From positions 1 to 49,332 of the forward strand of contig SHVV01000003.1 in NCBI GenBank assembly GCA_009694095.1: a stretch of DNA of 49,332 nucleotides, given 5' to 3'. Numbering within the stretch: the first letter of the stretch is position 1; every line of letters starts with the position of its first letter. This document shows positions 13,394 through 30,406 of this stretch, piece after piece. The notes below the pieces were generated by a model. It was given only the letters and a program-made list of their open reading frames with translations. It was not told where the DNA came from and did no database searches. This stretch comes from Alphaproteobacteria bacterium. GTDB taxonomy: Bacteria; Pseudomonadota; Alphaproteobacteria; SHVV01. A program made the translations under genes and the position numbers.

Positions 13394-13404
13394 GTGAGCG
13401 CGAC

Positions 13405-13617
13405 GTGGCGGACACAGAAGGCCCAGACGTTGAGCGAATCGACATCGTCTTTAGCGAAGCGTTGGAGAAGCTGCAGGCCGAAGGCGTCAATCAACGCGTT
13501 TTCGGTGTCGCATTGCTCGAGTTGGGCGTCACCGCGCTGGCACTGGCTGGAGAAAGCCAGGCCCGCATTCTCGAGCAAGCGCAGACGATCTTCGGCAAAG
13601 TGGCTCCGCTGCGGTAG
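13405..13617 (+). CDS. Small hypothetical protein
   Basis: 70-aa ORF filling the gap between two co-oriented genes; amphipathic helical pattern. Confidence 0.55.
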   Translation: MADTEGPDVERIDIVFSEALEKLQAEGVNQRVFGVALLELGVTALALAGESQARILEQAQTIFGKVAPLR

Positions 13618-13650
13618 TCGAGCCGCTGCTGAGCGCCGCGCGCACGCCTC

Positions 13651-14878: not shown

Positions 14879-14958
14879 AAGCCATTGAAAAATAATCGCC
14901 TTCGGTCATAGAGTGGCGCGGTCCCGGGCGTAGGGTAGCGATGATGGGAGATTAGAGA

Positions 14959-17340
14959 ATGGCCGGTAAGTTTAAGGTCGCCATCGTCGGATCGGGACCT
15001 GCTGGAATGAGTGCCGGCGGCCGCGCTGCGGAAACCAACGTCTCGCACATCTTGTTTGAGAAATCCGACCACCTGTCGGACACCATCTATAAATACCAAA
15101 AAGGCAAGTTCGTCATGGCTACGCCAGACGTCTTGCCGCTGCGAAGCCCGATGACGTTCCAAGCCGGGATCCGCGAGGACATCCTGGGAACCTGGGACAA
15201 AGAAGCGGCGAAGCACAAGGTCAACGTCCGCTTCAAGAGCGAAGTCGTCGCGATCAAAGGACAAAAAGGGAACTTCGAACTCCGCGTCCAGGGCGGCGGC
15301 GATATCGTGGCCGAGTACGTAATCCTTTGCATCGGACTGCAGGGTAACCTGCGCAAACTCGAATGCGAGGGCGCCGACCGTCCCTGGGTGCAGTATCAAC
15401 TGGACGATCCCGACGCATACTCGGACGAAACCATCGTCGTGATTGGCGCCGGCGACGCGGCGATCGAAAATGCGGTTGCGCTTGCCAAGCAAAACAAAGT
15501 GATTATCGTCAACCGCCGCGATGAATTCGCCCGCGTCAAACAGGGCAATCTCAATCTGATCGCCGAAGCGATCGATAAGGGAATCATCGAGTGCTACTAC
15601 AACTCGGAACCGGGACACATCGGCGACAACTATCTTCTGCTGAAGACCGCCGAGGGCGAAGCCAAGATCGAGTGTAACCGCATCATCGCCCGACTTGGCG
15701 CCGACCCGCCGCGCCGATTCGTTGAATCGTGCGGCATCAAGTTTCCGAGCAAGGATCGCGCCGCGCTGCCCGAGCTTTCCGGGTCCTACGAGTCGAACGT
15801 TCCCGGCCTTTATATTCTCGGCGCCCTCGGCGGCTATCCGCTGATCAAGCAGGCGATGAACCAGGGCTACGAAGTTATCGAGTTCATCGAGGGGCGACCG
15901 GTCAAGCCAGCCGATGAGCCGCTGCTCGAATCAAAGTTCGCCAACATCAACGTGCCGGTCGAGGAGATGTTGCAGCGCATTCGGCAAAACGTACCGCTTC
16001 TTAGCGGCCTAACGACGCTGCAGTTGCGCGAGTTCATGATCGACTCGAATGTTCATACGCCGCGTCGCGGCGACGTTATTTTCCATCGCAACGACTACAC
16101 CAACAGCTTTTTCTCGATCGTCCAAGGCAATGTTGATATTCAGATCAATCCCACCAACACGGCGGAGGTGGTCGGCCTGGGACAGGGCCAATTCTTCGGC
16201 GAGATGGGCTTGATTTCAGGGCGGCGACGGACGGCAACGACAATTTCGGCGTCTGATGATTGCGTTCTCATCGAAACCCCGCGCCGATCGATGATCAAGC
16301 TGGTCAATTCTGTCGCCGCGGTGAAAAAGGTCCTCGATCAGACCGCGATGGCGCGGCAGATCCAGACCCATCTCGCCCCGGCCGTTCCGACGAGCGAGCT
16401 GCAGGAAGTCGTCGAGAGCGCGAAGATCGAGAGTTACCCGGCGGGTCACGTCATCTTCAACGAAGGAGACCAAGGCGACGCCGTCTACCTGATACGTCGC
16501 GGATCGGTCACCGTATCGCGCTCGATCGCCGGTCGGAATCTCGTGTTATCGTACGTACCCGCGGGCAACTACGTCGGCGAGATGGCTCTGCTCTCGCGCA
16601 AACCACGATCGGCGACGATCAAGACCGCCGTGGCGACCGAAGCGGTCAGGCTCGACGGTTCGGCGTTCAACAAGGTGCTCGACAAATATCCCGACCTGCG
16701 GCGACGTCTCGAGGCAAAATACGACCAACGTTTGGTCGAGAACGTGCGCATGGAGGCCTCGCCCGAGAGTGGCAGCCTCATTGAGTTTTTGGTCGCCCAG
16801 GGTGTCGGCGAAGCCACCGACGTACTTCTGATCGACGAGTCGCTCTGCGTACGCTGCGACAACTGCGAAAAAGCTTGCGCCGAAACCCACGGCGGAACCT
16901 CGCGGCTCGATCGCGAAGCTGGTCCAACCTTTGCCTCGCTTCACGTGCCGACGAGCTGCCGCCACTGCGAGCATCCGCATTGCATGGCTGATTGCCCGGC
17001 CGACGCCATTCACCGGGCCTCGAACGGCGAAGTCTTCATCGACGATAAATGCATCGGCTGCGGCAATTGCGAACGCAATTGTCCGTACCAGGTCATTCAC
17101 ATGGCGGCTAAACCACCCGCCAAACCAGGGTTGCTGCAGTGGTTGTTATTCGGCATGGGGCCGGGCCCCGGCGAAGACCTGGAAGCAAAGAAAATCAAGA
17201 GCAGTTCGCCAAAACTTGCCGTCAAATGCGACATGTGCAAGGACTTGGCGGCGGGTCCAGCGTGCGTTCGGGCTTGTCCGACGGGCGCGGCGATCCGCGT
17301 CAATCCAGAAGATTTTTTTGCGTTGACCATTAGAGGCTGA
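14959..17340 (+). CDS. Fusion: TrxB/YpdA-like FAD-NAD(P)H oxidoreductase + two cNMP-binding domains + 4x[4Fe-4S] ferredoxin domain
   Basis: AIVGSGPAGMSA (FAD), VIGAGDAAIENA..VNRR (pyridine nucleotide), ESNVPGLYILG; cNMP cassettes FFGEMGLISGRRRTAT and YVGEMALLSRKPRSAT; CVRCDNCEKAC, CRHCEHPHCMADCP, CIGCGNCERNCP, CDMC..PACVRACP. Confidence 0.9.
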   Translation: MAGKFKVAIVGSGPAGMSAGGRAAETNVSHILFEKSDHLSDTIYKYQKGKFVMATPDVLPLRSPMTFQAGIREDILGTWDKEAAKHKVNVRFKSEVVAIKGQKGNFELRVQGGGDIVAEYVILCIGLQGNLRKLECEGADRPWVQYQLDDPDAYSDETIVVIGAGDAAIENAVALAKQNKVIIVNRRDEFARVKQGNLNLIAEAIDKGIIECYYNSEPGHIGDNYLLLKTAEGEAKIECNRIIARLGADPPRRFVESCGIKFPSKDRAALPELSGSYESNVPGLYILGALGGYPLIKQAMNQGYEVIEFIEGRPVKPADEPLLESKFANINVPVEEMLQRIRQNVPLLSGLTTLQLREFMIDSNVHTPRRGDVIFHRNDYTNSFFSIVQGNVDIQINPTNTAEVVGLGQGQFFGEMGLISGRRRTATTISASDDCVLIETPRRSMIKLVNSVAAVKKVLDQTAMARQIQTHLAPAVPTSELQEVVESAKIESYPAGHVIFNEGDQGDAVYLIRRGSVTVSRSIAGRNLVLSYVPAGNYVGEMALLSRKPRSATIKTAVATEAVRLDGSAFNKVLDKYPDLRRRLEAKYDQRLVENVRMEASPESGSLIEFLVAQGVGEATDVLLIDESLCVRCDNCEKACAETHGGTSRLDREAGPTFASLHVPTSCRHCEHPHCMADCPADAIHRASNGEVFIDDKCIGCGNCERNCPYQVIHMAAKPPAKPGLLQWLLFGMGPGPGEDLEAKKIKSSSPKLAVKCDMCKDLAAGPACVRACPTGAAIRVNPEDFFALTIRG

Positions 17341-17382: not shown

Positions 17383-18210
17383 ATGCACGAGTCTATCTTA
17401 GTTTATCGACATTTCCGTTACCTTAAGTGGGCGGTAACGCTGACCGTGGTCGCAATTCTGGCGTATGTTTTTCACACGCCTGGCGAACCCGCGAACGGCG
17501 GCACGTGGCTTGGGTACACGTTAGGCGGGATCGGCGCTGGCCTCATTTTTTGGCTGGCGTGGTTCGGTATGCGAAAACGCGACTATGCCAAGCCGACCGG
17601 CAAACTCGAAGACTGGCTTTCGGCCCACATCTACCTCGGCTTGTCGCTGATTTTCATCGCCACGCTCCACTCCGGATTCCAGTTTGGCTGGAACGTTCAT
17701 ACGCTGGCATACGTCCTCATGATGCTCGTGATCGCTTCTGGCGCGTTCGGGCTTTACGCCTATATCCGCTACCCGCGGCTGATGACCGACAACCGTCGCG
17801 GTACGACGCTCGATGCGATGATCGTCGAAATGGCCGAGGCCGACCGGGAGATTCGCGAATTGGCCGCGAAAATGAGCGACGAGATACGCGATCTCGTTTT
17901 CGACGCAATCGACAACACCACCATCGGTGGCGGCGTTCGCCGCCAGCTCGAGCCGGGTCGCTCCGGCCGTACCGTCGCGGCAATCGACAAAGTACGCAGT
18001 GCGTTTGCGTCGGGGGCGCGCGACCAGACCGAAACCTCGCGCCGTCTTATCTCGCTGCTAACGCGCAAGAATGAGCTTGTCGTGCGGGCGCGCAACGACG
18101 TCATGTACAAAGCAATGATGGATGTTTGGCTGTACGTCCACGTGCCGCTTTCGTTCGCTTTGCTCGTGGCCTTGGTCGCCCACGTCATCGCCGTTTTTTT
18201 CTACTGGTAG
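17383..18210 (+). CDS. Integral membrane protein, probable di-heme cytochrome b (ferric-reductase-like TM domain)
   Basis: About 5 TM helices; two of them carry His pairs 14 residues apart (WLSAH..ATLH, codons 17626/17668; WLYVH..LVAH, codons 18139/18181). Confidence 0.75.
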   Translation: MHESILVYRHFRYLKWAVTLTVVAILAYVFHTPGEPANGGTWLGYTLGGIGAGLIFWLAWFGMRKRDYAKPTGKLEDWLSAHIYLGLSLIFIATLHSGFQFGWNVHTLAYVLMMLVIASGAFGLYAYIRYPRLMTDNRRGTTLDAMIVEMAEADREIRELAAKMSDEIRDLVFDAIDNTTIGGGVRRQLEPGRSGRTVAAIDKVRSAFASGARDQTETSRRLISLLTRKNELVVRARNDVMYKAMMDVWLYVHVPLSFALLVALVAHVIAVFFYW

Positions 18211-19905: not shown

Positions 19906-19960
19906 TGGCTCCATGCGTAGTTTTAAATATCGTGAACTGAAGAATGACGGAGGCTGCCCG

Positions 19961-20392
19961 TTGTTGAAACGAGTGATGCTATGGGGCATTGGGGGCGTGC
20001 TGGCGCTTGCCATGACGACGACGTTTGAATCGGCACAGGCGGCGTCTTTGTCGACGTCCGGAGCGGTCTTGACCGATCTGCGGGCCGACATCGACAACGC
20101 ACAGATTTCGCAAACCATCGATCTCAATGGCGACGTTGCGATCGCGACCTACGTCATGGCGCACATGCCCGATGGCAAGTCATTGCAACGCAACAATCTC
20201 GGCTACTGGTTGCCGTGGAACGGCCAGATCGACACCCTCCTCGACAATAAGTTCGTCGCCGGAGGTTCGACGCTCACATTCAAGATCATCGACCAAAGTA
20301 TTCGCGATCGAATGTTTCCGATCACCTTCGTCGTCGCCTATCGCACGGCCGCGGCGTTCAAGTTCGGCGTGCTTCAAGTGTCGCCCCAATAA
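19961..20392 (+). CDS. Small exported hypothetical protein
   Basis: GGAGG RBS at 19949-19953 before TTG19961; signal peptide ending ..ESAQA; beta-rich body; tightly packed in the operon. Confidence 0.7.
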   Translation: MLKRVMLWGIGGVLALAMTTTFESAQAASLSTSGAVLTDLRADIDNAQISQTIDLNGDVAIATYVMAHMPDGKSLQRNNLGYWLPWNGQIDTLLDNKFVAGGSTLTFKIIDQSIRDRMFPITFVVAYRTAAAFKFGVLQVSPQ

Positions 20393-20398
20393 ACGAGC

Positions 20399-22279
20399 AT
20401 GCTGATACGACATTGGATTCAAGCGTTTGTTTCGACCTTCATCGCCGCCGTGGCAACCGGTCCGGTGGCAGCAGAGAGTGCGCTGACGGCGGCCGAAGTC
20501 GGCCAGATCATCGCGCAAGCGGTCAACGAAGCCCAGGGGCGCGGCGCATTGGCGACGATCGCTGCCGTCGATCGCGTCGGCAATGTCTTGGGCGTATTCC
20601 AGATGACCGGCGCCGCCGCCAACGCGACGATCAGTTCAGGCCGCAACGTCGTCGGCGGGCTCGAAGCCGCCGCCGTTCCTTCGACGCTCGCCGCCATCGC
20701 CAAGGCGATCACCGGCGCCTACATTTCTTCCCGCGGCAATGCGTTCACGACACGCACCGCGAGTCAGATCGTCCAGCAAAACTTCAACGTCGGCGAAACT
20801 TTTCAACCCGGCGGACCGCTGTTCGGCGTGCAATTCAGTCAGCTGCCGTGCTCGGACCTCGCCGTGCGTTTTTTCGATGGTGGCGCGGGCGGCATCGTTA
20901 ACGCGACGCTCGGGCCGAAACGCTCGCCGCTTGGCCTCTCGGCCGACCCCGGCGGGCTCCCGCTCTATAAAGCCGGCGACCTCGTCGGCGGAATCGGGGT
21001 CATCAGCGACAGCCTTTATTCGCTCGACCCAGTCATTACCAATTTCGATACCGACGCCGACGAATTGATCGCGGTCGGTGGCCAATCCGGATTCGCGCCA
21101 CCCAACGATATCAAGGCGAATTTCATTTCGGCCGGCGGACGGACGCTCCGCTACATCGATCGCGGGCCCGAAGCATTGGCGCGAAACCCGGCGACTGCGA
21201 CTGCATTCGGCGGGATCAACGGCGTCGTCGGCGTGCTCGCTAACGTCACCGGCTATTTCACTGCCGGCGGCGGCATTCTCGCTGGGCGGCAATACGGTAC
21301 CGCCGCGTCAGGCTATCGCCTTGAAGACGGGACGACTTACGGAACATTCCGCAACGGCAACCGCGCGATGATCTTGGTAGATGGCGCCGACACCAACCGA
21401 TTCCCGCCGGCCGTTGGCAGCGATGGACTGCTGTCGGCGGCCGAGGTGACTCGAATCATGATCGGAGCGCTGGCGGTGGCTTACGCTGGCCGGGCGCAAA
21501 TCCGGCGGCCGCTTTCGGACAACATTCACGTTACGATCTCGATCGTCGACACCAACGGCAAGATTCTGGCGTTGGCGCGGACCTTCGATGGTCCAGTGTT
21601 CGGCACCGACGTATCGCTGCAAAAAGCCCGCTCGGCGATGTTCTTCAGCAATCTCAACGCGGCTGCTGACTTTACTGCCGGGGGCCACGGCGCGCGCGTT
21701 GCGCAGGTTCGAACTTTCTTCGGAATCCCGACGTTATTGGCTGACGGTATCGCCTGGGGAAATCGCTCGATCGGCAATATCGCTCGCCCGTACTACCCCG
21801 ATGGCATCAACGGCAATCCGAATGGTCCGCTCAGCAATCCGGAATCCGCTTGGAGCCCGTTTTCGGTCGGGCTCCAGCTTGAGTTGGTCTCCGCCAACAT
21901 CCTGACCCACCTCGGATTCGTCGCCGGCCTGAACGCCGACACGCCGTCGCGTTGCACCGCGCTGCCGTTGCAGGTCGCGACCGGCGCGCCGAGGCTTGCC
22001 AACGGCCTGCAGATTTTCGCCGGCGGCGTTCCGATTTTCCGGGGCAATACCCAAGTCGGCGGCATCGGCATCTCCGGCGATGGCATCGACCAAGACGACA
22101 TGGTGGCATTCCTCGGCTTGCACAACGCTGGAGTCGCGCTCGCGACCGGCGTCAGTAACGCGCCCAAGGGGATCCGCGCCGATAATATCAGCGCATTTGG
22201 CGCTCGGCTGCGCTACGTCAATTGCCCGTTCGCGCCCTTCATCGACACATCGGCTCAGAACGTATGCGCCGGCAAATGA
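20399..22279 (+). CDS. Exported tandem GlcG/HbpS-type heme-binding protein
   Basis: Signal peptide; two repeats: TIAAVDRVGNVL..AIAKAITGA..GGLPLYKAGDLVGGIGV and TISIVDTNGKIL..SLQKARSA..GGVPIFRGNTQVGGIGISGDGIDQDD. Confidence 0.85.
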   Translation: MLIRHWIQAFVSTFIAAVATGPVAAESALTAAEVGQIIAQAVNEAQGRGALATIAAVDRVGNVLGVFQMTGAAANATISSGRNVVGGLEAAAVPSTLAAIAKAITGAYISSRGNAFTTRTASQIVQQNFNVGETFQPGGPLFGVQFSQLPCSDLAVRFFDGGAGGIVNATLGPKRSPLGLSADPGGLPLYKAGDLVGGIGVISDSLYSLDPVITNFDTDADELIAVGGQSGFAPPNDIKANFISAGGRTLRYIDRGPEALARNPATATAFGGINGVVGVLANVTGYFTAGGGILAGRQYGTAASGYRLEDGTTYGTFRNGNRAMILVDGADTNRFPPAVGSDGLLSAAEVTRIMIGALAVAYAGRAQIRRPLSDNIHVTISIVDTNGKILALARTFDGPVFGTDVSLQKARSAMFFSNLNAAADFTAGGHGARVAQVRTFFGIPTLLADGIAWGNRSIGNIARPYYPDGINGNPNGPLSNPESAWSPFSVGLQLELVSANILTHLGFVAGLNADTPSRCTALPLQVATGAPRLANGLQIFAGGVPIFRGNTQVGGIGISGDGIDQDDMVAFLGLHNAGVALATGVSNAPKGIRADNISAFGARLRYVNCPFAPFIDTSAQNVCAGK

Positions 22280-24087
22280 CCTTATGGTACGTTTTCTATG
22301 TTGCGCTCGCGGTAGCGATCACCCTGGCAACATCGCCATCGTTTGCCGGCAAAGAAAAAATCGAAGCCAGCGGTGAAACCGGCGTCACGCTGGCGCAGGC
22401 AACCGACGAAGATCGCCGCCGACCCGGGCGTCCGGTCCCGGACCGGCAACAAATCCCCGCAGTCGATTCGTCCCGGGTGCCGCCGCCGCAGCCGACGCTG
22501 CCGCGCGAAACCATCCCGGTTCCCGATCGTTGGCGCATCGTCGAGTCGATCGGCGTCAACTCGCGTTGGTGGGACCCGTACAATCAGAACATGCTCAAGG
22601 GCGACCGGCCGGTGTTCGATGACTGGTTCGTCAACTTGAGCGTGATCCTCGACGCGATTTACGAACCACGCCGGTTTCCCAACCCGACCGGCACGCAGGC
22701 GACGACCAACGCCAACGCGGTCGATCAGTTCGGCAAGAACAAGCAGACGGTTCTCGCCGAGAACCTGATCACCACGCTGTCGTTTATCAAAGGCAACACC
22801 GCCTACCAACCGCCGGACTATGAAATCCGCATCGGGCCGGTCTTCAACCACAATAAGGTGGTGGCGGAGGAAGTGGGGCTGCTGTACGCCGACCCGGCCA
22901 AGGGCCGCACGCGCAGCGATCAGTTCGTCGGCTGGCAGGAGCTGTTCCTCGACTACCATATTCGCAACGTCTCCGATCGGTTCGATTTCGACTCGATCCG
23001 TCTCGGTATCCAGCCCTTTCAACTCGACTTCCGTGGATTCCTCTTTCAGGACTTGCAGCTCGGCGCGCGTCTGTTCGGCAACCGCGACAACAATTTCTGG
23101 CAGTACAACGTCGGTTGGGTGCGCCGCCTCGAAAAAGACACTAATAGCGGTTTGAACGACATCGGCGCCAAGCTGCGCGACGATGACGTCTACTTCGTCA
23201 ATCTTTTCCGCCAGGACTGGCCGGTGCTCGGATTCACGAGCCAGGCCGTGGTCGCGCACAACCGCAACAACGAGGACGATCGCCGCTATTTCAACGAGAA
23301 CGAGTTCCAGGAGCGTCCGGCGCCGATCGGCGATCAACGGCCGCGCAAGTATCACGTCACCTATCTCGGGCTGAACGGCGACGGACACTTCGGCCGGCTC
23401 AACCTGACCGGCTCGCTCTATTACGCATTCGGTAAAGACGAGCTTAATCAATTCGCCGGCGACGGATCGAGCGCCGATATCCGCGCCTATTTCGCCGCTA
23501 CGGAGGCGTCTTGGGACTTCAGCTGGATTCGAGTTCGTGCCCAAGCGGCGTATGCGTCCGGCGATAACGATCCAACTGACGGCAAGGAGGGCGGCTTCGC
23601 GGCGATCTTCGAAAACCCGCAGTTCGCCGGCTCAGATACGAGTTACTTCATTCGGCAGTCGATCCCCTTCATCGGTGGCGGCGGCACGACGATCACTTCG
23701 CGCAACGGGATGCTCACGGAGCTGCGCACCTCGAAGGAGCACGGCCAGTCGAACTTCATCAATCCGGGCTTGATCCTTGCCGGCTTCGGCACCGACATGG
23801 ACCTCTCGCCGCAGCTTCGCGTCTCGACCAATTTCAACCACTTGTCGTTCGCCACCACCGATTCGCTCGAGTTCCTGCGCAATCAGAACGCGATCGGCGA
23901 CGAAATCGGTTACGACCTCTCGGTCGCTTTCACCTATCGCCCGCATTTCACGCAGAACGTCGTGTTCCGGCTATCCGGCGCCTGGTTGATCCCGGGCGAC
24001 GGGTTTCGCGACATCTACCGGGCGCGAACCGGAACCGGCGACGACTTCTTCTACTCCGTGCTCGGCAACGTGACTCTCACCTATTAG
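22276..24087 (+). CDS. Outer-membrane beta-barrel (porin-like) protein
   Basis: ATGA overlap with the upstream stop; signal peptide ..SFA; many amphipathic aromatic strands; C-terminal beta-signal YSVLGNVTLTY; no Cys. Confidence 0.78.
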   Translation: MTLWYVFYVALAVAITLATSPSFAGKEKIEASGETGVTLAQATDEDRRRPGRPVPDRQQIPAVDSSRVPPPQPTLPRETIPVPDRWRIVESIGVNSRWWDPYNQNMLKGDRPVFDDWFVNLSVILDAIYEPRRFPNPTGTQATTNANAVDQFGKNKQTVLAENLITTLSFIKGNTAYQPPDYEIRIGPVFNHNKVVAEEVGLLYADPAKGRTRSDQFVGWQELFLDYHIRNVSDRFDFDSIRLGIQPFQLDFRGFLFQDLQLGARLFGNRDNNFWQYNVGWVRRLEKDTNSGLNDIGAKLRDDDVYFVNLFRQDWPVLGFTSQAVVAHNRNNEDDRRYFNENEFQERPAPIGDQRPRKYHVTYLGLNGDGHFGRLNLTGSLYYAFGKDELNQFAGDGSSADIRAYFAATEASWDFSWIRVRAQAAYASGDNDPTDGKEGGFAAIFENPQFAGSDTSYFIRQSIPFIGGGGTTITSRNGMLTELRTSKEHGQSNFINPGLILAGFGTDMDLSPQLRVSTNFNHLSFATTDSLEFLRNQNAIGDEIGYDLSVAFTYRPHFTQNVVFRLSGAWLIPGDGFRDIYRARTGTGDDFFYSVLGNVTLTY

Positions 24088-24097
24088 GGTCGCCTCA

Positions 24098-27000
24098 ATG
24101 CGCTTGGTCTTTGCCGCGATCTTTTTCTTCGCGCTCGGCGTTGCCGGCGGCGGTATGGCGTCCGAAGGCGAGAAGCCGCTCGACCTTCAATACGTGACAG
24201 CGCCGCCAGCGCCGGTATCGCAAACACAAGCTCAGGCCGACGCCAAAAGTGTGGGCTGCATGAGCTGTCACACCCAGACCGATCAGAAGACGATGCATGC
24301 CAACCCGGCGATCGTCTTGGGGTGCGTCGACTGCCACGGTGGCGACGCTGCGGTGCGCAAGCCGGAAGGTTCGAAATACGACCGCACCTACGCGAAGGAG
24401 AAGAAAGCGCTCCACCACGACGACGAACACGGAAAGGGCGGCGAGGAAGAGCGCCATGGCGCAATCGACCCGTTGTTATTCGGCGACGCCGCCTACGTCG
24501 CGGCGATGCAAAAAGCCCACGTCATGCCGCGCATGCCCAATACCTGGGGCTATCCGCGCAGCCGCAACCCCGAGCGCGCCTACACGCTCTTCAACAAGGA
24601 GGCGCCGGAGTACATCCGCTTCGTCAATCCGTCCGACTACCGCATTGCGCGAGAGGCCTGTGGCGCCTGCCACTTGCCGATCATCCAAGCCGCCGAGCGC
24701 CATCTGATGTCGACCGGCGCCATGCTGTTCGGTGGTGGCGCCTACAACAACGGCATACTTCCGTTCAAAAACTATCTCTTGGGCGAGGCTTACACGCGAG
24801 ACGGCCAGCCGGCCGCGGTCGAAAGCCCTGGCTTCACGCCGGAGATGAAGAAGTGGGGCGTCATCGAAAAGTTGGTGCCGTTGCCGACGTTCCAGACCGT
24901 GCCGCCGGGCGACGTTTTCCGCGTGTTTGAGCGCGGCGGGCGCAACATCGTCACCCAGTTCCCCGAGATCGGGTTACCCAACTCGCTCGGCCAGATTCAA
25001 CGTCTCGAAGAACCGGGCCGTCCCGATTTACGCCAGTCGATGCGCGGGCCTGGAACCGGGCTTCGCATTGCGGTGCCGGTCCTCAACATTCACCGAACGC
25101 GCCTCAACGACCCGTTCATGTGGTTCATGGGCACCAACGATCAGCCCGGCGACTACCGCACGTCGGGTTGCGGCGGTTGCCACATCGTTTACGCCAACGA
25201 CCGCGACCCGCGCCACTCGGGGCCTTATTCGATTTACGGACACGAGGGCAAGACCCAGACTATCGACCCGACGATCCCGAAGGACGAAGAAGGCCACCCG
25301 ATCAAGCACGAATTCTCGCGCCAAATTCCGACCGCGCAGTGCATGAACTGTCACATGCACCAACCCAACGTCTTCGTGAACAGCTTCATGGGCTACACGA
25401 TGTGGGACTACGAATCGGATGCACCGAACATGTGGCCGGAGAAACAGCAATATCCGACCGCGGCCGAGATCCGAAAAGTCAACGAACGCAATCCCGAGGA
25501 AGCCGCGATCCGCGGCAAGTGGGCGGACGTCGAGTTCACCAAGAACGTGTGGACCGACGTCAACCCGAAGAACAAGGATACGCAATTCGCCGACTATCAT
25601 GGCCACGGCTGGAATTTCCGCGCCATCTATAAACGCGATCGCAAAGGCAATTTGCTCGACGCCGATGGCAAGATCGTTTCCAACGACGATCCGCAGAAGT
25701 TCAAGAAAGCCGTGCACATGTCGTCGATCCATGTCGACAAAGGCATGCACTGCATCGACTGTCATTTTTCCCAGGACGCTCACGGCAACGGCTACATCCA
25801 GACCGAGGTCGCCAACGCGGTCGAAATCGATTGCGCCGACTGCCACGGCACGGTCGACAAGTTGCCGTCCCTCATTACGAGCGGGCCGGCGGCGCTCCGC
25901 GGCGGTTACGACCTCACGCTGATCCGCCTGGGCGACGGCCGCCGCCGTTTCGAATGGCGTGGCGACACGCTTGTCCAGCGCTCGGCGCTGTGGCCCAATC
26001 TCGAGTGGGAGATGAGTCTCGTCAAACACAGCGTCGAGCCCGATCACAAGGACTACAACCCCAAGGCGGCGCGGGCGAAGCTGATGTCCAAGGATACAGC
26101 GTCGCTCAAGTGGGGCCCCGGGGTTGCCAAGGACGATCGCGCCCATAAAGACGACGAAATGCTGTGTTTCACATGCCACCTCTCGTGGACGACGAGCTGC
26201 GCTGGTTGCCACCTGCCGATTCAGGCCAACTGGAAGGCGCCTTCGCATAAGTACGAAGGCCAAGTCTCGCGCAACTACGCGACTTACAACCCGCAAGTCG
26301 CGCGCGACGATGTCTTCCACTTGGGTCGCCACCAGACCACAAAAGGCAACAAGATCGCTCCCGTCCGGTCTTCATCGGGGCTGGTGTTGTCGTCGCAGAA
26401 CATTAACCGCGAGCGCATCTACATCCAGCAGCAGCCGGTCGCCGCCTCGGGCCACTCGGCGCAGGCTTTCGCTCCACACTTCCCCCACACTGAGCGCAAG
26501 ACCGAAACCAAGACCTGCAACGATTGCCACCTGTCGGAGAGCGACGACAACAACGCGATCATGGCCAACACGCTGATGTTCGGGACCAATTTCCCGACCT
26601 TCGTCGGCGCCAATGCCTGGGTCGCCGCGGATGGCGGCATCGAGGGCGTGCAAGTGACCGAGTACGACGAGCCGCAGGCCGTCATCGGCAGTTACCTGCA
26701 CCGATATGCCTACCCCGACTGGTATGCCGACCACCAAAAGCACGGCAAGGAACTGCAGATCGCCCACAACCACCCATCGGCGCGCGCCGCCTGCCTCCAG
26801 CTTCGCGGCGAATATCTCTACGTCGCCGAGGGCCCGAATGGGTTCCGCGCCTACGACGTCGCCTCGATCGCCAACAAAGGATTTTCACAGCGCATCGTCA
26901 CGGCGCCGTTCGGCCCGTGGGGTCACGACACCCACATCGCCACAAAGAACGCGACCTGCGTGGCCTTGCCGTCGAACGCCCAAGCGATTCATCCGGCGCG

Positions 27001-27970
27001 CAACCAGGGCGACCTGATGCGCAAGGACAATCAGGAGCAGCCGTTCCACCCAATCTACGACTACGCGTTCGTCACCGACTCGGAAGAAGGTCTGATTGCG
27101 GTCGACGTCAACACTCTTTCGGACGGCGAGCCGCGCAATAATTTTTTCACCCGCGCGCTGACGTGGAACGAGAACGGAGTCCTGAACGGCGCCCGCCACA
27201 TCACGATCGCTGGCTACTATTTCTACATCGTCGCCGATTCGGGCATCGTCGTTCTCAACATGGACGATCCGATGAAGCCCAAGGTCGAAAGCATCATACC
27301 GCTGAAAAACGGCCATTCGACGGCGCTCCAGTTCCGCTACTTGTTCGCCACCGACGCCGAGGGCTTCAAGGTGTTTGACGCCACCAACATGGCCAAACCG
27401 GTTGCGGTGCCCGGCGCCGTCATCCCGCTCAGAAATGCCAACCGCATCCTGCCGGTCCGAACCTACGCTTATGTCGCCGCCGGCAACGAGGGTCTTGTCA
27501 TCATCGACATCGAGAAACCGCGTAAACCTTCGGTCTACATGAAGTACACCGCCGACGGCGCGATCAACGATGCGCGCGACGTGACAGTAGGCACGACTAA
27601 CGCGACGCTCTTCGCTTACGTCGCCGACGGCAAGAACGGTCTCAAGGTGATTCAACTGACCGCGCCTGACACGCAGCCCAACTTCTACGGGTTTAGCCCT
27701 GAGCCCAAACCGAACCTGATCGCGTGGTACAAGACGACTTGGCCGGCGCTCGGTCTCTCCAAAGGGCTCGAACGTGACCGCGCCGTCGATGAAACCGGCG
27801 GTCAGATCGCGGTCTTCGGTCGGCTAGGGTCGCGTCCGTTCTCGAAGAAAGAAATGGAGAAATTCTATCTCGATGCCCAAGGGCGGCCGTGGTTCACCCA
27901 CGAGGAAATTCGCCAACGTGACTTCGTGTCGGTCAAGCCCGGCGAGCGCAAGGCGGCGAGAGCGAACTGA
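24098..27970 (+). CDS. Exported decaheme c-type cytochrome with C-terminal LVIVD-repeat beta-propeller
   Basis: Signal peptide; 10 CxxCH (CMSCH, CVDCH, CGACH, CGGCH, CMNCH, CIDCH, CADCH, CFTCH, CAGCH, CNDCH); about 7 repeats such as YLYVAEGPNGFRAYDV, YAFVTDSEEGLIAVDV, YAYVAAGNEGLVIIDI, FAYVADGKNGLKVIQL. Confidence 0.9.
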   Translation: MRLVFAAIFFFALGVAGGGMASEGEKPLDLQYVTAPPAPVSQTQAQADAKSVGCMSCHTQTDQKTMHANPAIVLGCVDCHGGDAAVRKPEGSKYDRTYAKEKKALHHDDEHGKGGEEERHGAIDPLLFGDAAYVAAMQKAHVMPRMPNTWGYPRSRNPERAYTLFNKEAPEYIRFVNPSDYRIAREACGACHLPIIQAAERHLMSTGAMLFGGGAYNNGILPFKNYLLGEAYTRDGQPAAVESPGFTPEMKKWGVIEKLVPLPTFQTVPPGDVFRVFERGGRNIVTQFPEIGLPNSLGQIQRLEEPGRPDLRQSMRGPGTGLRIAVPVLNIHRTRLNDPFMWFMGTNDQPGDYRTSGCGGCHIVYANDRDPRHSGPYSIYGHEGKTQTIDPTIPKDEEGHPIKHEFSRQIPTAQCMNCHMHQPNVFVNSFMGYTMWDYESDAPNMWPEKQQYPTAAEIRKVNERNPEEAAIRGKWADVEFTKNVWTDVNPKNKDTQFADYHGHGWNFRAIYKRDRKGNLLDADGKIVSNDDPQKFKKAVHMSSIHVDKGMHCIDCHFSQDAHGNGYIQTEVANAVEIDCADCHGTVDKLPSLITSGPAALRGGYDLTLIRLGDGRRRFEWRGDTLVQRSALWPNLEWEMSLVKHSVEPDHKDYNPKAARAKLMSKDTASLKWGPGVAKDDRAHKDDEMLCFTCHLSWTTSCAGCHLPIQANWKAPSHKYEGQVSRNYATYNPQVARDDVFHLGRHQTTKGNKIAPVRSSSGLVLSSQNINRERIYIQQQPVAASGHSAQAFAPHFPHTERKTETKTCNDCHLSESDDNNAIMANTLMFGTNFPTFVGANAWVAADGGIEGVQVTEYDEPQAVIGSYLHRYAYPDWYADHQKHGKELQIAHNHPSARAACLQLRGEYLYVAEGPNGFRAYDVASIANKGFSQRIVTAPFGPWGHDTHIATKNATCVALPSNAQAIHPARNQGDLMRKDNQEQPFHPIYDYAFVTDSEEGLIAVDVNTLSDGEPRNNFFTRALTWNENGVLNGARHITIAGYYFYIVADSGIVVLNMDDPMKPKVESIIPLKNGHSTALQFRYLFATDAEGFKVFDATNMAKPVAVPGAVIPLRNANRILPVRTYAYVAAGNEGLVIIDIEKPRKPSVYMKYTADGAINDARDVTVGTTNATLFAYVADGKNGLKVIQLTAPDTQPNFYGFSPEPKPNLIAWYKTTWPALGLSKGLERDRAVDETGGQIAVFGRLGSRPFSKKEMEKFYLDAQGRPWFTHEEIRQRDFVSVKPGERKAARAN

Positions 27971-28138: not shown

Positions 28139-29482
28139 TTAAGACCGCGGGATCGCCTCGTTGAGCTTCCGCATCGCCGCGACGAACGCTTCCGGCCGAT
28201 AAGCTTCGTCCTTCGCCGTCGCGTCGTACGCCTCGTTCAAGGTATTGATCATCTTTTTGTGCTGAGCGTCGTTGACGAGGCCCGACTGTTTCATCGCATT
28301 GATGATCGCCGAAAGCGCCATCGTCGCTTGCTCCGCCGTCGCATAGTCGACGAATTCACCCTTCATGCCCTCTTGGGTGACGCCGCTCAGAAGCGCTTCC
28401 ATGTCTTTGCGCTCGAAGGTGTGCTTGGCGAACCGGTCGACCAGCTGCGCGACAATCGCCAGCATCTCCTTGGCGGCATCGGCCGTTTGCTGCGGGCTCT
28501 GGGTCGAAGCCTGATGCAACTTAACCGTAGAGTCGCGGAGCCGTTGTCCGGACGGCTCATCGACCTGCGTTGCAATGATGCGCAGCATGATCATGTTCGC
28601 GTCGTTGAGCCGAATGATGCCCGGCCCGAGCTTGGCGCTTTCACGCCGTTGCCAGCGTACGTTGCTCATCGGGTGATGGCACGCGTGGCAGTCGAACAGC
28701 ACGAGCTCGGGGAAAATACCGTCGTGGCTTCGGGTCGGCGACGTCAAGGCCTCAAGGAGCCCGCGGAGTTGAATTGCTTGACCGATCGCCCAGGTCTGAA
28801 CGCCGTTCAGGACCGGCTTGCGCTTGCGATAGTCGGCATCGACGACGAAGTGCGCCGGCTGGATGGCGGTAAACGTGTCGAGCTCAAAGCTCATGCGTGG
28901 ATGGCCGGCACCCATAATGCGGTGGGTGACGAACTTGGTTTCGTTGCCGAAGTGGCACGACAGGCAAAGCTCGGCTCGCTTAACCGGGTCGGTGGTTGGA
29001 TACATGCCGTTCTTCAGATTGTCGGCGTGACCGGCCGTGCCCGAGATGTGAATGCCGAGCCAGCGTACCGCACCGCCATGACACGCCTCGCACCCAACGC
29101 CATCCGATACCTGGTAGGTGCGGCCGCGCGCTTCGGGGGCGGGACTGTCGGCGTGACAATCGAGGCAAATCTTCGCCGTATGGGCGTTGGGAAGCCCCAA
29201 ATTGGCGGCAATCCGTTTTGAGCGCTCGTTATGCAGCACCTCGAACGCTTTGGCGTGCTTATCCTGACGCGTCCAGGTGACGTATTCGTTTTGCTGAACG
29301 TTGGCGTCCTTCCATGGCGTGACCGCGCCGTGGCACGTGGAGCCGGCGCAACTGGCGACGCCGAGGTGTACGTCTTTGCTCTGGGACGGCAATTGCTGGC
29401 CAACAGCAGCCCACGCGAGAACGCTCGCGAAAAGGCCGACGACAAGGAATGAGCGAAGGGTCATCCCCAAGCGCCGCGTCAT
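28139..29482 (-). CDS. Periplasmic pentaheme c-type cytochrome (c554/c552-like N-terminal domain + helical C-terminus)
   Basis: RBS GGGAGG before ATG29482; signal peptide; CAGSTCH (Cx4CH), CLDCH, GVGCEACHG, CLSCH, CHACH; W...KHAKAF motif. Confidence 0.87.
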   Translation of the reverse strand: MTRRLGMTLRSFLVVGLFASVLAWAAVGQQLPSQSKDVHLGVASCAGSTCHGAVTPWKDANVQQNEYVTWTRQDKHAKAFEVLHNERSKRIAANLGLPNAHTAKICLDCHADSPAPEARGRTYQVSDGVGCEACHGGAVRWLGIHISGTAGHADNLKNGMYPTTDPVKRAELCLSCHFGNETKFVTHRIMGAGHPRMSFELDTFTAIQPAHFVVDADYRKRKPVLNGVQTWAIGQAIQLRGLLEALTSPTRSHDGIFPELVLFDCHACHHPMSNVRWQRRESAKLGPGIIRLNDANMIMLRIIATQVDEPSGQRLRDSTVKLHQASTQSPQQTADAAKEMLAIVAQLVDRFAKHTFERKDMEALLSGVTQEGMKGEFVDYATAEQATMALSAIINAMKQSGLVNDAQHKKMINTLNEAYDATAKDEAYRPEAFVAAMRKLNEAIPRS

Positions 29483-29571
29483 GATTCCTCCCTGAAACTT
29501 GTCTCTTCCGAACGCTCTCACTGCTTCAATACTATGGCGCGCTCCCGGGCAATGATAAAGCCTTAAGTCGG

Positions 29572-30327: not shown

Positions 30328-30406
30328 CAGTGTTCGCTCGAATGGCGCGGCCGCGCAGGTCCGGTTAAGATACCGCGGTAACTCACGATTTCAGGTGCTG
30401 ACCGCG

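What the first reader, a model, noticed from the sequence alone, without database searches (positions are those of the whole stretch)
14959..17340. Flavoenzyme with two apparently intact cNMP-binding domains between FAD and a four-cluster ferredoxin
Seen: a TrxB-like fold with no CxxC in the flavin part, as in TrxB-type ferredoxin-NADP reductases and YpdA. Basic VNRR after the second Rossmann motif hints at NADPH. Both phosphate-binding cassettes keep GE...R followed by Thr or Ser (RRTAT, PRSAT). The C-terminus has a DmsB/NrfC-type 16-Cys pattern. Inference: tandem cNMP domains, as in PKA/PKG regulatory regions, could act as a hinge that switches FAD-to-FeS electron transfer, making this a second-messenger-controlled redox enzyme. 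The hydroxyl residue after Arg is compatible with cGMP as well as cAMP.
Basis: partly seen in the sequence, partly recalled or inferred. Interest (0 to 1): 0.82.

Follow-up and report, generated by a model that had tools for sequence, protein, structure and literature searches.

The report
Cyclic-nucleotide-sensing flavoprotein feeding a haem wire
A bacterial protein that joins an NADPH-type flavin unit, two intact cyclic-nucleotide sensor domains and four iron-sulfur clusters is the cytoplasmic end of a conserved chain of haem proteins that crosses the cell envelope, so a second messenger may switch electron traffic through that chain, though nothing has been tested at the bench.

Summary
ORF 14959-17340 (+, 793 aa) has four parts. 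First, a YpdA/TrxR-like FAD/NAD(P)H module with no CxxC. Second and third, two cNMP-binding domains in register with PKA RI-alpha. Fourth, a ferredoxin module with 16 invariant Cys.

The cassette Gly, Glu and Arg are invariant in 81 of 81 orthologues. Among 35 distant representatives the Arg is kept in only 22 (domain A) and 25 (domain B).

This gene heads a seven-gene same-strand cluster; an eighth related gene lies convergent on the minus strand:
- a 5-TM membrane protein with two W-x3-H-x13-H motifs, probably two haems b
- an FHA-anchored decahaem cytochrome c
- a small secreted protein
- a double HbpS-like secreted protein
- an outer-membrane barrel
- a decahaem LVIVD protein
- a c554-like cytochrome

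Of 80 related loci, 73 hold at least one other cluster gene. Natural fusions of the flavoprotein with the membrane protein exist.

The cluster type has been noted in print as PCC4 (2017) and probably ptd (2024), with function unknown. I saw no analysis there of the FAD-CNB-CNB-FeS fusion.

Best reading: an NAD(P)H-oxidising, cNMP-regulated entry module of a transmembrane electron conduit. Ligand binding, gating and direction of flow are inferred, not shown.

The parts
14948..14953 (+). GGGAGA ribosome-binding site before the ATG at 14959
   Evidence: Read directly from the sequence.
14959..17340 (+). FCF gene: the 793-aa FAD-CNB-CNB-4x[4Fe-4S] fusion protein
   Evidence: AF2 model: mean pLDDT 88.5, pTM 0.83.
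14959..15948 (+). Flavin module, residues 1-330. It has the two-Rossmann YpdA/TrxR fold, a GSGPAG FAD motif and no CxxC.
   Evidence: Pfam. Foldseek best match is Bdr/YpdA 7apr/7a7b, TM 0.82 normalised to the target. Cys scan.
15511..15540 (+). NRRDEFARVK, residues 185-194: an NADPH-type basic motif after the second Rossmann strand
   Evidence: Aligns with HRRDEF of TrxR 3r9u. Conserved in 78-81 of 81 orthologues. The role in binding the 2'-phosphate is recalled from TrxR, not tested.
16045..16374 (+). cNMP-binding domain A, residues about 363-472
   Evidence: Pfam cNMP_binding. Aligned in register with PKA RI-alpha CNB-A.
16192..16242 (+). Phosphate-binding cassette A, residues 412-428, FFGEMGLISGRRRTATT
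   Evidence: G414, E415 and R424 kept in 81 of 81 orthologues. R424 kept in 22 of 35 distant representatives.
16375..16758 (+). cNMP-binding domain B, residues about 473-600. Its long C-helix runs into the FeS module.
   Evidence: Pfam best stretch 491-577. Helices 567-576 and 578-599 in the model.
16570..16620 (+). Phosphate-binding cassette B, residues 538-554, YVGEMALLSRKPRSATI
   Evidence: G540, E541, R550 and A552 kept in 81 of 81 orthologues. R550 kept in 25 of 35 distant representatives. Intact in 8 of 8 flavin-less relatives.
16813..17340 (+). Four-cluster ferredoxin module, residues 619-793, with 16 Cys in four groups
   Evidence: Fer4_11 and related Pfam families. 16 Cys invariant in 35 of 35. 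Best solved relative HycB 7z0s_B.
17383..18210 (+). MEM: a 275-aa inner-membrane protein with 5 TM helices and a helical loop of about 110 aa. It carries W78-x3-H82-x13-H96, S119-G120-xx-G123 and W249-x3-H253-x13-H267. It is probably a two-haem-b carrier.
   Evidence: Motif residues kept in 58-59 of 59 homologues. 32 of 34 members weakly match PF01292, all below the cut-off. Found downstream of FCF in 60 of 80 loci. Fused to FCF in P0123, L082, L083 and L085. The motifs match the PCC3/PCC4 inner-membrane protein of PMC5566968.
18220..19905 (+). FHA-decahaem cytochrome c, 561 aa: a cytoplasmic FHA domain (residues about 24-97), one TM helix (about 138-169) and a periplasmic part with 10 CxxCH
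   Evidence: Pfam. 10 CxxCH and 10 further His invariant in 53 of 53. Present in 57 of 80 loci.
19913..20392 (+). 159-aa secreted protein with no family match
   Evidence: N-terminal hydrophobic leader. No Pfam family. Found in 14 of 80 loci.
20399..22279 (+). 626-aa secreted protein with two HbpS-like (PF03928) domains
   Evidence: Pfam E 1.2e-15, two stretches. Signal peptide. Found in 45 of 80 loci.
22264..24087 (+). Probable outer-membrane beta-barrel of about 607 aa. The ATG at 22264 lies inside the listed ORF 22222-24087. The protein ends ...TLTY.
   Evidence: Alginate_exp at 25.2 bits, exactly at the cut-off. Leader and C-terminus. Found in 43 of 80 loci. The barrel assignment is tentative.
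24098..27970 (+). 1290-aa secreted cytochrome with 10 CxxCH and LVIVD beta-propeller repeats
   Evidence: Found in 39 of 80 loci.
28139..29521 (-). 460-aa c554-like secreted cytochrome with 4 CxxCH, convergent with the operon
   Evidence: Found in 28 of 80 loci.

Best explanation
The protein is the cytoplasmic entry module of a transmembrane electron conduit.

Steps, all inferred from homology:
1. NADPH, or less likely NADH, reduces the FAD of the CxxC-less YpdA/TrxR-like module.
2. Electrons pass along the four [4Fe-4S] clusters of the C-terminal module.
3. That module docks on the cytoplasmic face of the next gene's 5-TM protein, whose two H-x13-H pairs would hold two haems b across the membrane.
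4. From there electrons reach the ten haems of the FHA-anchored cytochrome c.
5. They then pass to the outer-membrane barrel, the decahaem LVIVD protein, the c554-like cytochrome or the HbpS-like protein.

Net flow is most likely outward. In that direction NAD(P)H is low-potential and the membrane potential helps, as in NADPH oxidase and ferric reductases. This thermodynamic argument is my own reasoning.

The two canonical cNMP-binding domains sit between the flavin and the FeS wire. They bind cAMP or cGMP and set how well the donor module couples to the wire, so export of reducing power is under second-messenger control. The FHA domain would give a second cytoplasmic input.

Shown here: the domain anatomy, the conservation, the gene linkage and the natural fusions. 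Inferred: the cofactors, ligand binding, gating, direction and terminal acceptor.
For: Anatomy. The whole-chain AF2 model is confident (pLDDT 88.5, pTM 0.83).

Ligand site under selection:
- Cassette Gly, Glu and Arg are kept in 81 of 81 orthologues spanning Alpha-, Beta- and Gammaproteobacteria.
- The cassettes are more conserved than their domains.
- In flavin-less relatives cassette B is intact in 8 of 8 and cassette A in 7 of 8.
- All 120 listed close homologues carry PF00027.
- The own genome, 63% complete, has 8 class III cyclase domain matches.

Linkage to the wire:
- Of 80 loci, MEM is present in 60, FHA-cytochrome in 57, HbpS-like in 45, barrel in 43, LVIVD cytochrome in 39 and c554-like in 28. 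73 of 80 hold at least one of these.
- The unrelated upstream genes are present in only 1 and 2 loci.
- In 5 of 5 tested genomes whose locus lacked MEM downstream, MEM is present.
- In one of them the same genes lie on the same contig in another order: MEM, FHA-cytochrome, HbpS, barrel, MHC, c554, FCF.
- The triad is kept at about 50% identity.

Fusions:
- P0123 (1110 aa) is FCF followed by MEM; residues 794-1110 are 37% identical to the window's MEM over its full length, E 4e-68.
- L082, L083 and L085 read FCF and MEM as one open frame.
- P0137 carries two FHA domains fused in front of FCF.

MEM:
- W-x3-H-x13-H on TM3 and TM5 and SGxxG on TM4 are kept in 58-59 of 59.
- PMC5566968 ties these motifs to two-haem ferric-reductase and cytochrome b domains (passages).
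- 32 of 34 members weakly match cytochrome b561 PF01292.
Against: - No binding, activity or expression datum exists for any member that I could find.
- Among 35 distant representatives the cassette Arg is replaced in 13 (A) and 10 (B), and Glu of B in 13. The ligand site is therefore dispensable in some lineages.
- A class III cyclase lies near the gene in only 4 of 80 loci. From the own genome's density (8 per 1.88 Mb) and about 1.2 Mb of loci, roughly 5 would be expected by chance.
- Flavin-less CNB-CNB-FeS proteins show that the tandem is not tied to an FAD/FeS junction.
- I had no model coordinates, so the FAD-to-cluster distance and the place of the CNB domains in the model are unknown.
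- MEM's haem binding rests on motifs. Its Pfam matches are below the cut-off.
- PMC5566968 proposed the opposite direction, from extracellular donors inward to the quinone pool (sections 16 and 17 passages).
- The canonical phospho-Thr-binding Ser of the FHA domain is Ala in 33 of 53 homologues.
Confidence: 0.45

Rival explanations
1. Same conduit, but the cNMP-binding domains are not switches. They would be a structural spacer, a dimerisation or docking element, or a site for a constitutively bound ligand other than cAMP/cGMP. Electron transfer would then be regulated elsewhere, for example by the FHA domain, by transcription or by substrate supply.
For: - The cassette Arg is lost in 13 and 10 of 35 distant representatives.
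- There is no enrichment of neighbouring cyclases: 4 of 80 loci.
- The tandem also occurs without the flavin, as expected for a docking platform on the FeS/membrane module.
Against: - Gly, Glu and Arg of both cassettes are invariant in 81 of 81 orthologues, and the cassettes are the best-conserved part of each domain.
- Recalled: CNB-fold proteins that bind other ligands, such as CooA and FNR, lack this canonical cassette.
Confidence: 0.22
2. Electrons flow inward. Periplasmic or extracellular donors such as Fe(II), Mn(II) or reduced cytochromes would feed the haem wire. The FeS-flavin head would pass the electrons to NAD(P)+ or another cytoplasmic acceptor, or MEM would reduce quinone. This resembles the Tmc/Hmc complexes of sulfate reducers or the model drawn for PCC4.
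For: - PMC5566968 found PCC3/PCC4 clusters in Fe(II) oxidisers and modelled inward flow.
- A related cluster is expressed under all conditions tested in the Fe(II) oxidiser Ferrigenium straubiae (section 27 of bioRxiv 10.64898/2026.01.22.701106).
- The layout of periplasmic multihaem c, membrane b and cytoplasmic FeS matches Tmc/Hmc (recalled).
Against: - Reducing NAD(P)+ from Fe(II)-level donors while moving electrons against the membrane potential is strongly uphill, and the cluster shows no coupling device. This is my own thermodynamic argument.
- Most carriers listed are Rhodospirillales, SAR116 and Lysobacterales. To my knowledge (recalled) these are not metal oxidisers.
Confidence: 0.18
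3. The protein is a self-contained soluble enzyme, for example a low-molecular-weight-thiol disulfide reductase like YpdA/Bdr or a ferredoxin-NADP reductase with its own ferredoxin. On this reading the neighbouring genes are unrelated.
For: The best sequence and fold match of the flavin module is Bdr/YpdA.
Against: - The score for the YpdA family is 124.7 against a cut-off of 339.9.
- The Cys of Bdr's GGGPCG is Ala here.
- Linkage is conserved in 73 of 80 loci, in two different gene orders.
- Natural fusions to MEM exist.
Confidence: 0.05

Closest known systems
PCC4 (and PCC3) candidate porin-cytochrome gene clusters of He et al. 2017 (PMC5566968). I read passages and the whole of sections 16 and 18.
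   Same: - A conserved inner-membrane protein of about 300 aa with 5 TM helices, SGXXG on TM4 and WX3HX13H on TM3 and TM5. The window's MEM has exactly these.
- A Fe-S (pfam13247) gene directly upstream of it.
- A decahaem cytochrome, a porin and a tetrahaem cytochrome.
- One genome annotated Fe-S and the membrane protein as one gene, matching the fusions found here.
   Different: - The text I saw calls the protein only an Fe-S cluster gene. It mentions no FAD/NAD(P)H module, no cNMP-binding domains and no FHA domain.
- It models inward flow to quinone.
- The window has a decahaem LVIVD protein and a double HbpS-like protein, and no pentahaem protein.
ptdABCDEFG operon (bioRxiv 10.1101/2023.11.21.568154). 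I read abstract passages, the whole of section 8 and passages from the discussion and methods.
   Same: The run PtdE (cNMP-binding protein with 4Fe-4S clusters), PtdF (ferric-reductase-like membrane protein) and PtdG (decahaem) matches the order FCF, MEM, decahaem cytochrome. The function is stated there as completely unknown, with extracellular electron transfer suggested.
   Different: - There the FAD/NAD(P) oxidoreductase (PtdC) is a separate gene, described as flavohaemoprotein-like.
- PtdE is described with two clusters, not four.
- No regulatory role of the cNMP domains is discussed.
- I could not compare sequences because Tables S7 and S8 were closed, so identity of the families is probable, not shown.
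Nonahaem cytochrome cluster of Ferrigenium straubiae (bioRxiv 10.64898/2026.01.22.701106). I read the whole of section 27.
   Same: A multihaem cytochrome c with a cytosolic FHA domain and one TM helix, next to a 5-TM protein and a cytosolic [4Fe-4S] protein. The cluster is expressed under all tested conditions.
   Different: - Nine haems, not ten.
- The authors found no redox motif in the 5-TM protein.
- They do not mention cNMP-binding or flavin domains.
PKA regulatory subunit RI-alpha and PKG tandem CNB domains
   Same: Two consecutive CNB domains align in register over about 215 residues, with both cassettes matched (E about 5e-23). This gives a precedent for a tandem whose helices move on ligand binding (recalled).
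   Different: The effector is a redox module, not a kinase. I recognised no inhibitor sequence and no docking/dimerisation domain. This is a resemblance in how it may work, not family membership.
TrxR-fold NADPH flavoenzymes without CxxC: Bdr/YpdA and TrxR-type ferredoxin-NADP reductases
   Same: The two-Rossmann fold (TM 0.82 to Bdr; about 0.6 to YumC-type FNRs), an HRR-like NADPH motif and no redox disulfide.
   Different: It scores below the YpdA and TrxR family cut-offs and lacks Bdr's Cys. The ferredoxin partner is fused in cis and is a four-cluster HycB/DmsB type.
NADPH oxidase / ferric reductase (FRD) systems, and the Tmc/Hmc transmembrane redox complexes of sulfate reducers (both recalled)
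   Same: - NOX/FRE: NADPH to FAD to two haems b across the membrane to an outside acceptor.
- Tmc/Hmc: periplasmic multihaem c, membrane cytochrome b and a cytoplasmic FeS protein.
   Different: - Here a four-cluster FeS wire lies between the flavin and the haems b.
- The flavin fold is TrxR-like, not FNR-like.
- The outside partner is a chain of c-type haems.
- cNMP and FHA modules are attached.
- MEM does not reach the Pfam Ferric_reduct model: 2 of 34 members match at E up to 1.
cAMP-regulated bacterial enzymes with a fused CNB domain, such as the mycobacterial acetyltransferase Pat
   Same: A CNB domain fused to an enzyme, as a precedent for direct allosteric control by cAMP. The NCBIfam Pat model matches the CNB part at 63.3 bits.
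   Different: The enzyme class is different. Here there is a tandem, not a single CNB, and the module is a redox chain.

Membership tests
Cyclic nucleotide-binding domain (PF00027) | Match to the family model above its curated cut-off | tested here: met
   124 bits against 27.5, in two stretches.
Cyclic nucleotide-binding domain (PF00027) | Phosphate-binding cassette with Gly-Glu ... Arg-(Ser/Thr/Ala)-Ala | tested here: met
   Both cassettes are present and align with those of PKA RI-alpha. Gly, Glu and Arg are kept in 81 of 81 orthologues.
Cyclic nucleotide-binding domain (PF00027) | Binds cAMP or cGMP | not testable with these tools
   Needs ITC, DSF or a co-crystal.
PKA/PKG regulatory subunit | Tandem CNB-A/CNB-B in register | tested here: met
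   Query residues 371-589 align to RI-alpha 66-278, E about 5e-23.
PKA/PKG regulatory subunit | Inhibitor or pseudosubstrate site and N-terminal docking/dimerisation domain, or a fused kinase | tested here: not met
   The flanks are a flavin module and a ferredoxin module. No kinase family was found.
Thioredoxin reductase (TIGR01292) | Family score and redox-active CxxC | tested here: not met
   59.6 bits against 343.45. No CxxC in residues 1-340.
YpdA/Bdr bacillithiol disulfide reductase (TIGR04018) | Family score above the cut-off | tested here: not met
   124.7 bits against 339.9. The fold is nonetheless closest to Bdr, TM 0.82.
YpdA/Bdr bacillithiol disulfide reductase (TIGR04018) | Cys in the GGGPCG motif (its importance is recalled) | tested here: not met
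   The query has GSGPAG where Bdr 7a7b has GGGPCG. Position 15 is Cys in 2 of 81 orthologues.
TrxR-type ferredoxin-NADP reductase | TrxR fold without CxxC, and an NADPH motif | tested here: met
TrxR-type ferredoxin-NADP reductase | C-terminal subdomain with an aromatic residue stacking on FAD (recalled) | not tested
   No coordinates of the model were available.
Four-cluster ferredoxin of DmsB/NrfC/HybA/HycB type (PF13247) | Family match and four Cys groups (16 Cys) | tested here: met
   Fer4_11 at 43.2 bits against 26.2. 16 Cys invariant in 35 of 35. HycB 7z0s_B aligns over query 623-786. The protein scores below the equivalog cut-offs of DmsB, NrfC, HydN and AegA, so it belongs to the type but is none of those proteins.
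PCC4-type cluster (PMC5566968) | Inner-membrane protein with 5 TM helices, SGXXG on TM4 and WX3HX13H on TM3 and TM5 | tested here: met
   W78/H82/H96, S119/G120/G123 and W249/H253/H267 are kept in 58-59 of 59. Five TM helices in the model.
PCC4-type cluster (PMC5566968) | Fe-S (pfam13247) gene directly upstream of the membrane protein | tested here: met
   FCF ends at 17340 and MEM starts at 17383. Fer4_11 match.
PCC4-type cluster (PMC5566968) | Porin plus three periplasmic cytochromes with 4, 5 and 10 haems | tested here: inconclusive
   A decahaem and a 4-CxxCH cytochrome are present. No pentahaem protein was seen. There is an extra decahaem LVIVD protein. The barrel call rests on 25.2 bits, exactly at the cut-off.
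Ferric reductase / NOX transmembrane domain (PF01794) | Match to the family model | tested here: inconclusive
   2 of 34 MEM members match at E up to 1. 32 of 34 weakly match PF01292 instead, below the cut-off. An automatic cluster name in the Atlas reads 'ferric reductase like'.

The most novel reading that the evidence does not exclude
A second messenger directly gates a respiratory-type electron wire. On this reading cAMP or cGMP binding to the CNB tandem couples or uncouples an NADPH-fed flavin from a chain of 4 FeS clusters, 2 haems b and at least 20 haems c that carries cytoplasmic reducing power to the cell surface. The system would be a modular bacterial counterpart of NADPH oxidase with a built-in cyclic-nucleotide switch and an FHA input. 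It is widespread in Proteobacteria, including freshwater and marine lineages.
Probability: 0.3. Interest if true: 0.85.

Novelty: new variant of a known kind. Interest (0 to 1): 0.65.

Why it matters
Recalled: cyclic nucleotides in bacteria are known to act mainly through transcription factors, channels and a few fused enzymes. I found no case in print of a cNMP receptor built into an electron-transfer chain.

The family is large. The representative library holds 955 members at E up to 1e-30.

The cluster has been flagged three times as an unexplained candidate for extracellular electron transfer: PCC4, ptd and the Ferrigenium nonahaem cluster.

Recognising that its 'Fe-S protein' is an NAD(P)H-flavin, CNB-CNB, 4FeS fusion does three things.
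- It gives the conduit a defined cytoplasmic donor or acceptor.
- It argues about the direction of flow.
- It offers a simple, testable handle: cNMP-dependent NAD(P)H-to-cytochrome reduction.

Cultured carriers named include Zavarzinia sp. CC-PAN008, Oceanibacterium hippocampi, Tahibacter soli, Tahibacter aquaticus and Pseudomarimonas arenosa.

Tried and rejected
- Complex prediction of FCF residues 335-793 with MEM gave no verdict (run scores 0.33, 0.01, 0.00). It counts neither for nor against binding.
- Foldseek of the MEM model against the PDB gave no match at E up to 0.001.
- VIA-align wide search of the MEM model gave only generic helical bundles (Z up to 11, within the range the tool calls common for helical proteins). 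Cytochrome b and ferric-reductase folds did not stand out. This does not exclude them.
- The look-up of sequencing runs: no RNA holder listed, only six DNA runs labelled freshwater metagenome. This says nothing about expression.
- Cyclase neighbourhood: an HMM built from 7 of the 8 own-genome cyclase stretches (one was dropped for an internal stop) found a cyclase in 4 of 80 loci: L012, L059, L077 and L078. That is about the chance expectation, so I do not use it as support. Only in L078 is the cyclase directly adjacent (it ends at 3249; FCF starts at 3396).
- Ser/Thr kinases near the gene: 5 of 80 loci. No clear link to the FHA domain.
- Promoter and terminator scan: counts were at or below the shuffled expectation. 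I do not claim the one promoter-like site at 14885-14914.
- PMC5459824 (one passage) mentions an unrelated cNMP-domain gene. It is irrelevant.
- L095, a second FCF paralogue in G001, has no MEM-like neighbour by tblastn or by profile comparison. I left this unexplained.
- I rejected filing the flavin module as TrxR or YpdA (below the cut-offs, no Cys). I rejected 'chance ORF' because of the E-values and conservation.
- Supplements of the three papers were closed. They may list domain architectures or accession numbers that would show whether PtdE and the PCC4 Fe-S gene are this family.

Full report
**What is at the coordinates**

The ORF 14959..17340 (+) is real and encodes 793 aa. A GGGAGA ribosome-binding site lies just before the ATG.

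Pfam finds three kinds of domain:
- a two-Rossmann pyridine-nucleotide oxidoreductase module: Pyr_redox_3, residues 9-288, E 3.4e-28; Pyr_redox_2, residues 5-303
- two cNMP-binding domains: E 2.3e-36, 124 bits against a cut-off of 27.5
- several 4Fe-4S families over residues 620-780, including the DmsB-type Fer4_11

- Residues 1-340 hold no CxxC.
- 'VIIVNRRDEF' aligns with 'IYLIHRRDEF' of a solved thioredoxin reductase. From memory, that stretch is the NADPH 2'-phosphate site of TrxR.
They align column by column with CNB-A and CNB-B of PKA RI-alpha over about 215 residues.
- The 16 Cys fall into four groups and are invariant in 35 of 35 diverse relatives.

**What the flavin module is**

Its best sequence and fold relative is Bdr/YpdA: E 1e-19 and TM 0.82 normalised to the target. 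TrxR-type ferredoxin-NADP reductases follow at TM about 0.6.

The module is a member of neither family.
- It scores 124.7 against 339.9 for YpdA and 59.6 against 343 for TrxR.
- It has Ala where Bdr has the Cys of GGGPCG.

A five-model AlphaFold2 run on an alignment of 35 gave mean pLDDT 88.5 and pTM 0.83, so a defined multi-domain arrangement is predicted. In that model the long C-helix of CNB-B (578-599) leads through one more helix (602-613) into the FeS module. I had no coordinates, so I cannot give distances between cofactor sites.

**Conservation of the ligand sites**

I took 81 orthologues: the window plus 80 loci at 57-88% identity. Their record titles place them in Alpha-, Beta- and Gammaproteobacteria. 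Results:

| Cassette | Residues kept in 81 of 81 | Ser/Thr after the Arg |
|---|---|---|
| A | G414, E415, R424 | 71 of 81 |
| B | G540, E541, R550, A552 | 74 of 81 |

The cassettes are the best-conserved stretches of their domains. Mean top-residue frequency is 0.91 against 0.66 for A, and 0.78 against 0.62 for B.

The picture is weaker among 35 representatives of 50%-identity clusters (30-62% identical to the query):
- R424 is kept in 22 of 35.
- R550 is kept in 25 of 35.
- E541 is kept in 22 of 35.

So the site is under selection in the orthologous group and decays in some distant branches.

The own genome (63% complete) has 8 class III cyclase domain matches, none on this contig. A cyclase lies near the gene in 4 of 80 loci, which is about the chance level.

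The gene heads a tight same-strand cluster with gaps of 7-43 bases.

| Gene | Coordinates | Features |
|---|---|---|
| MEM | 17383-18210 | 275 aa, 5 TM helices |
| FHA-cytochrome | 18220-19905 | cytoplasmic FHA domain, one TM helix, ten CxxCH |
| small secreted protein | 19913-20392 | 159 aa, no family |
| HbpS-like protein | 20399-22279 | two HbpS-like domains, secreted |
| probable barrel | 22264-24087 | outer-membrane beta-barrel |
| LVIVD cytochrome | 24098-27970 | 1290 aa, ten CxxCH, LVIVD repeats |
| c554-like cytochrome | 28139-29521 (-) | 4 CxxCH, convergent |

Presence of these genes in the 80 loci:

| Gene | Loci of 80 |
|---|---|
| MEM | 60 |
| FHA-cytochrome | 57 |
| HbpS-like | 45 |
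| barrel | 43 |
| LVIVD cytochrome | 39 |
| c554-like | 28 |
| at least one of these | 73 |
| AFG1 ATPase (upstream, unrelated) | 1 |
| dienelactone hydrolase (upstream, unrelated) | 2 |

Several loci are cut by contig ends, so these counts are lower bounds. Seven loci show FCF alone.

In a second arrangement FCF sits at the far end of the same gene set. This arrangement is seen in L037, whose record title names a Betaproteobacterium.
- MEM was found in 5 of 5 such genomes.
- In one of them the order on a single contig is MEM, FHA-cytochrome, HbpS, barrel, MHC, c554, FCF, then a DUF5916 barrel.

Linkage that survives reordering is strong evidence of a common function.

**Fusions**

- P0123 (1110 aa) is FCF followed by MEM. 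Residues 794-1110 are 37% identical to the window's MEM over its whole length (E 4e-68).
- Three genomes of one genus read FCF and MEM as a single open frame.
- P0137 carries two FHA domains in front of FCF.
- P0170 has an extra small ferredoxin domain between the flavin and CNB-A.
- Proteins of 440-511 aa made only of CNB-CNB-4FeS exist (8 of 8 tested). They keep cassette B in 8 of 8 and cassette A in 7 of 8.
- One such gene in a genome (L093) is followed by two genes. The first encodes a 272-aa membrane protein with a weak MEM-like H-x13-H helix (hhalign E 2e-4, probability 47%). The second encodes a small multihaem cytochrome.

The conserved core is therefore the trio CNB-CNB-FeS, membrane protein and multihaem c. 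The flavin is fused in this branch.

**The membrane partner**

MEM keeps the following in 58-59 of 59 homologues:
- W78-x3-H82-x13-H96 on the third helix
- S119-G120-xx-G123 on the fourth helix
- W249-x3-H253-x13-H267 on the fifth helix

From the positive-inside pattern of its loops, its N-terminus is cytoplasmic. That fits the fusions. This topology is my own reading of the sequence.

He et al. 2017 (PMC5566968) describe exactly this motif set for the conserved inner-membrane protein of their candidate PCC3 and PCC4 clusters. They relate it to the two-haem ferric-reductase and cytochrome b domains (passages).

Direct family evidence is weak.
- 32 of 34 members match PF01292 below its cut-off, and 2 match Ferric_reduct.
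- Fold searches gave nothing specific.

**What is in print**

- PMC5566968 (passages, sections 16 and 18) describes PCC4. Its parts are a porin, cytochromes with 4, 5 and 10 haems, the membrane protein and, in subgroup II, an Fe-S (pfam13247) gene upstream of the membrane protein. In one genome the Fe-S gene and the membrane protein were annotated as one gene. The authors model inward flow to quinone.
- The ptd preprint lists PtdE as a cNMP-binding protein with 4Fe-4S clusters, PtdF as ferric-reductase-like and PtdG as a decahaem. It calls the function completely unknown.
- The Ferrigenium preprint reports an FHA-nonahaem cytochrome next to a 5-TM protein and a [4Fe-4S] protein. It says such an FHA-cytochrome combination had not been reported.

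None of the text I saw analyses the FAD-CNB-CNB-FeS fusion or proposes cNMP control. Six searches found no biochemical study. The supplements were closed.

**Mechanism and verdict**

The most economical reading is a chain from NAD(P)H to FAD, four FeS clusters, two haems b, ten haems c and further outer components. The CNB tandem and the FHA domain would be cytoplasmic control points.

I favour outward flow. NAD(P)H is the low-potential end, and electron exit is assisted by the membrane potential. Inward reduction of NAD(P)+ from metal-level donors would be steeply uphill. This is an argument, not a result.

I rate it a new variant of known kinds (a CNB-regulated enzyme and an FNR-ferredoxin fusion) placed in a cluster type already noted but unexplained. 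Interest is 0.65.

Noticed in passing
window 18220-18730 (FHA part of the cytochrome): The FHA domain keeps G30-R31 (53 of 53), H48 (40 of 53) and N71-G72 (42 and 49 of 53). The Ser that normally contacts phospho-Thr is Asn here and Ala in 33 of 53 homologues. The domain may therefore bind its partner without canonical phospho-Thr recognition.
   Followed up: partly
P0123; L082, L083, L085; P0137; P0170: Natural variants of the family: FCF fused to the membrane protein, two FHA domains fused in front of FCF, and an extra small ferredoxin domain between the flavin and CNB-A.
   Followed up: partly
window 20399-22279: A 626-aa secreted protein with two HbpS-like (PF03928) domains is conserved in 45 of 80 loci. 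Its role in a haem wire is unexplained. A periplasmic haem-handling or electron-accepting role is only a guess.
   Followed up: no
window 24098-27970 and 22264-24087: A 1290-aa secreted cytochrome with ten CxxCH and LVIVD beta-propeller repeats lies next to a probable outer-membrane barrel. This may be a porin-cytochrome pair of a type I did not find described.
   Followed up: no
window 29572-33328: Directly after the cluster come a prepilin peptidase (A24), a T2SS/T4P ATPase (T2SSE with an MshEN domain) and a T2SSF platform protein. I did not examine whether pilus or secretion genes relate to the cytochromes.
   Followed up: no
L078 46-3249 and 3396-5771: A class III cyclase-domain ORF of about 1070 aa ends 147 bases before the FCF homologue on the same strand. 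This is the only directly adjacent cyclase among 80 loci.
   Followed up: no
L037 10422-12767 and 13823-16012 (-): In the second arrangement FCF is followed by a DUF5916/CBM9 barrel-like protein. A Ser/Thr kinase lies nearby on the other strand. Kinases were seen near FCF in 5 of 80 loci.
   Followed up: partly
L095 6485-8962 (genome G001): One genome carries three relatives: two full-length and one flavin-less. One of the full-length copies has no MEM-like or cytochrome neighbour.
   Followed up: partly
L093 10721-16006: Near the flavin-less relative lies a 1761-aa RHS-repeat protein with SpvB and TcdB-type domains. It is unrelated to the finding.
   Followed up: no
window 12653-14793: Upstream genes are a dienelactone hydrolase and an AFG1-like ATPase. 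They are conserved next to FCF only in the closest relative, L001.
   Followed up: yes
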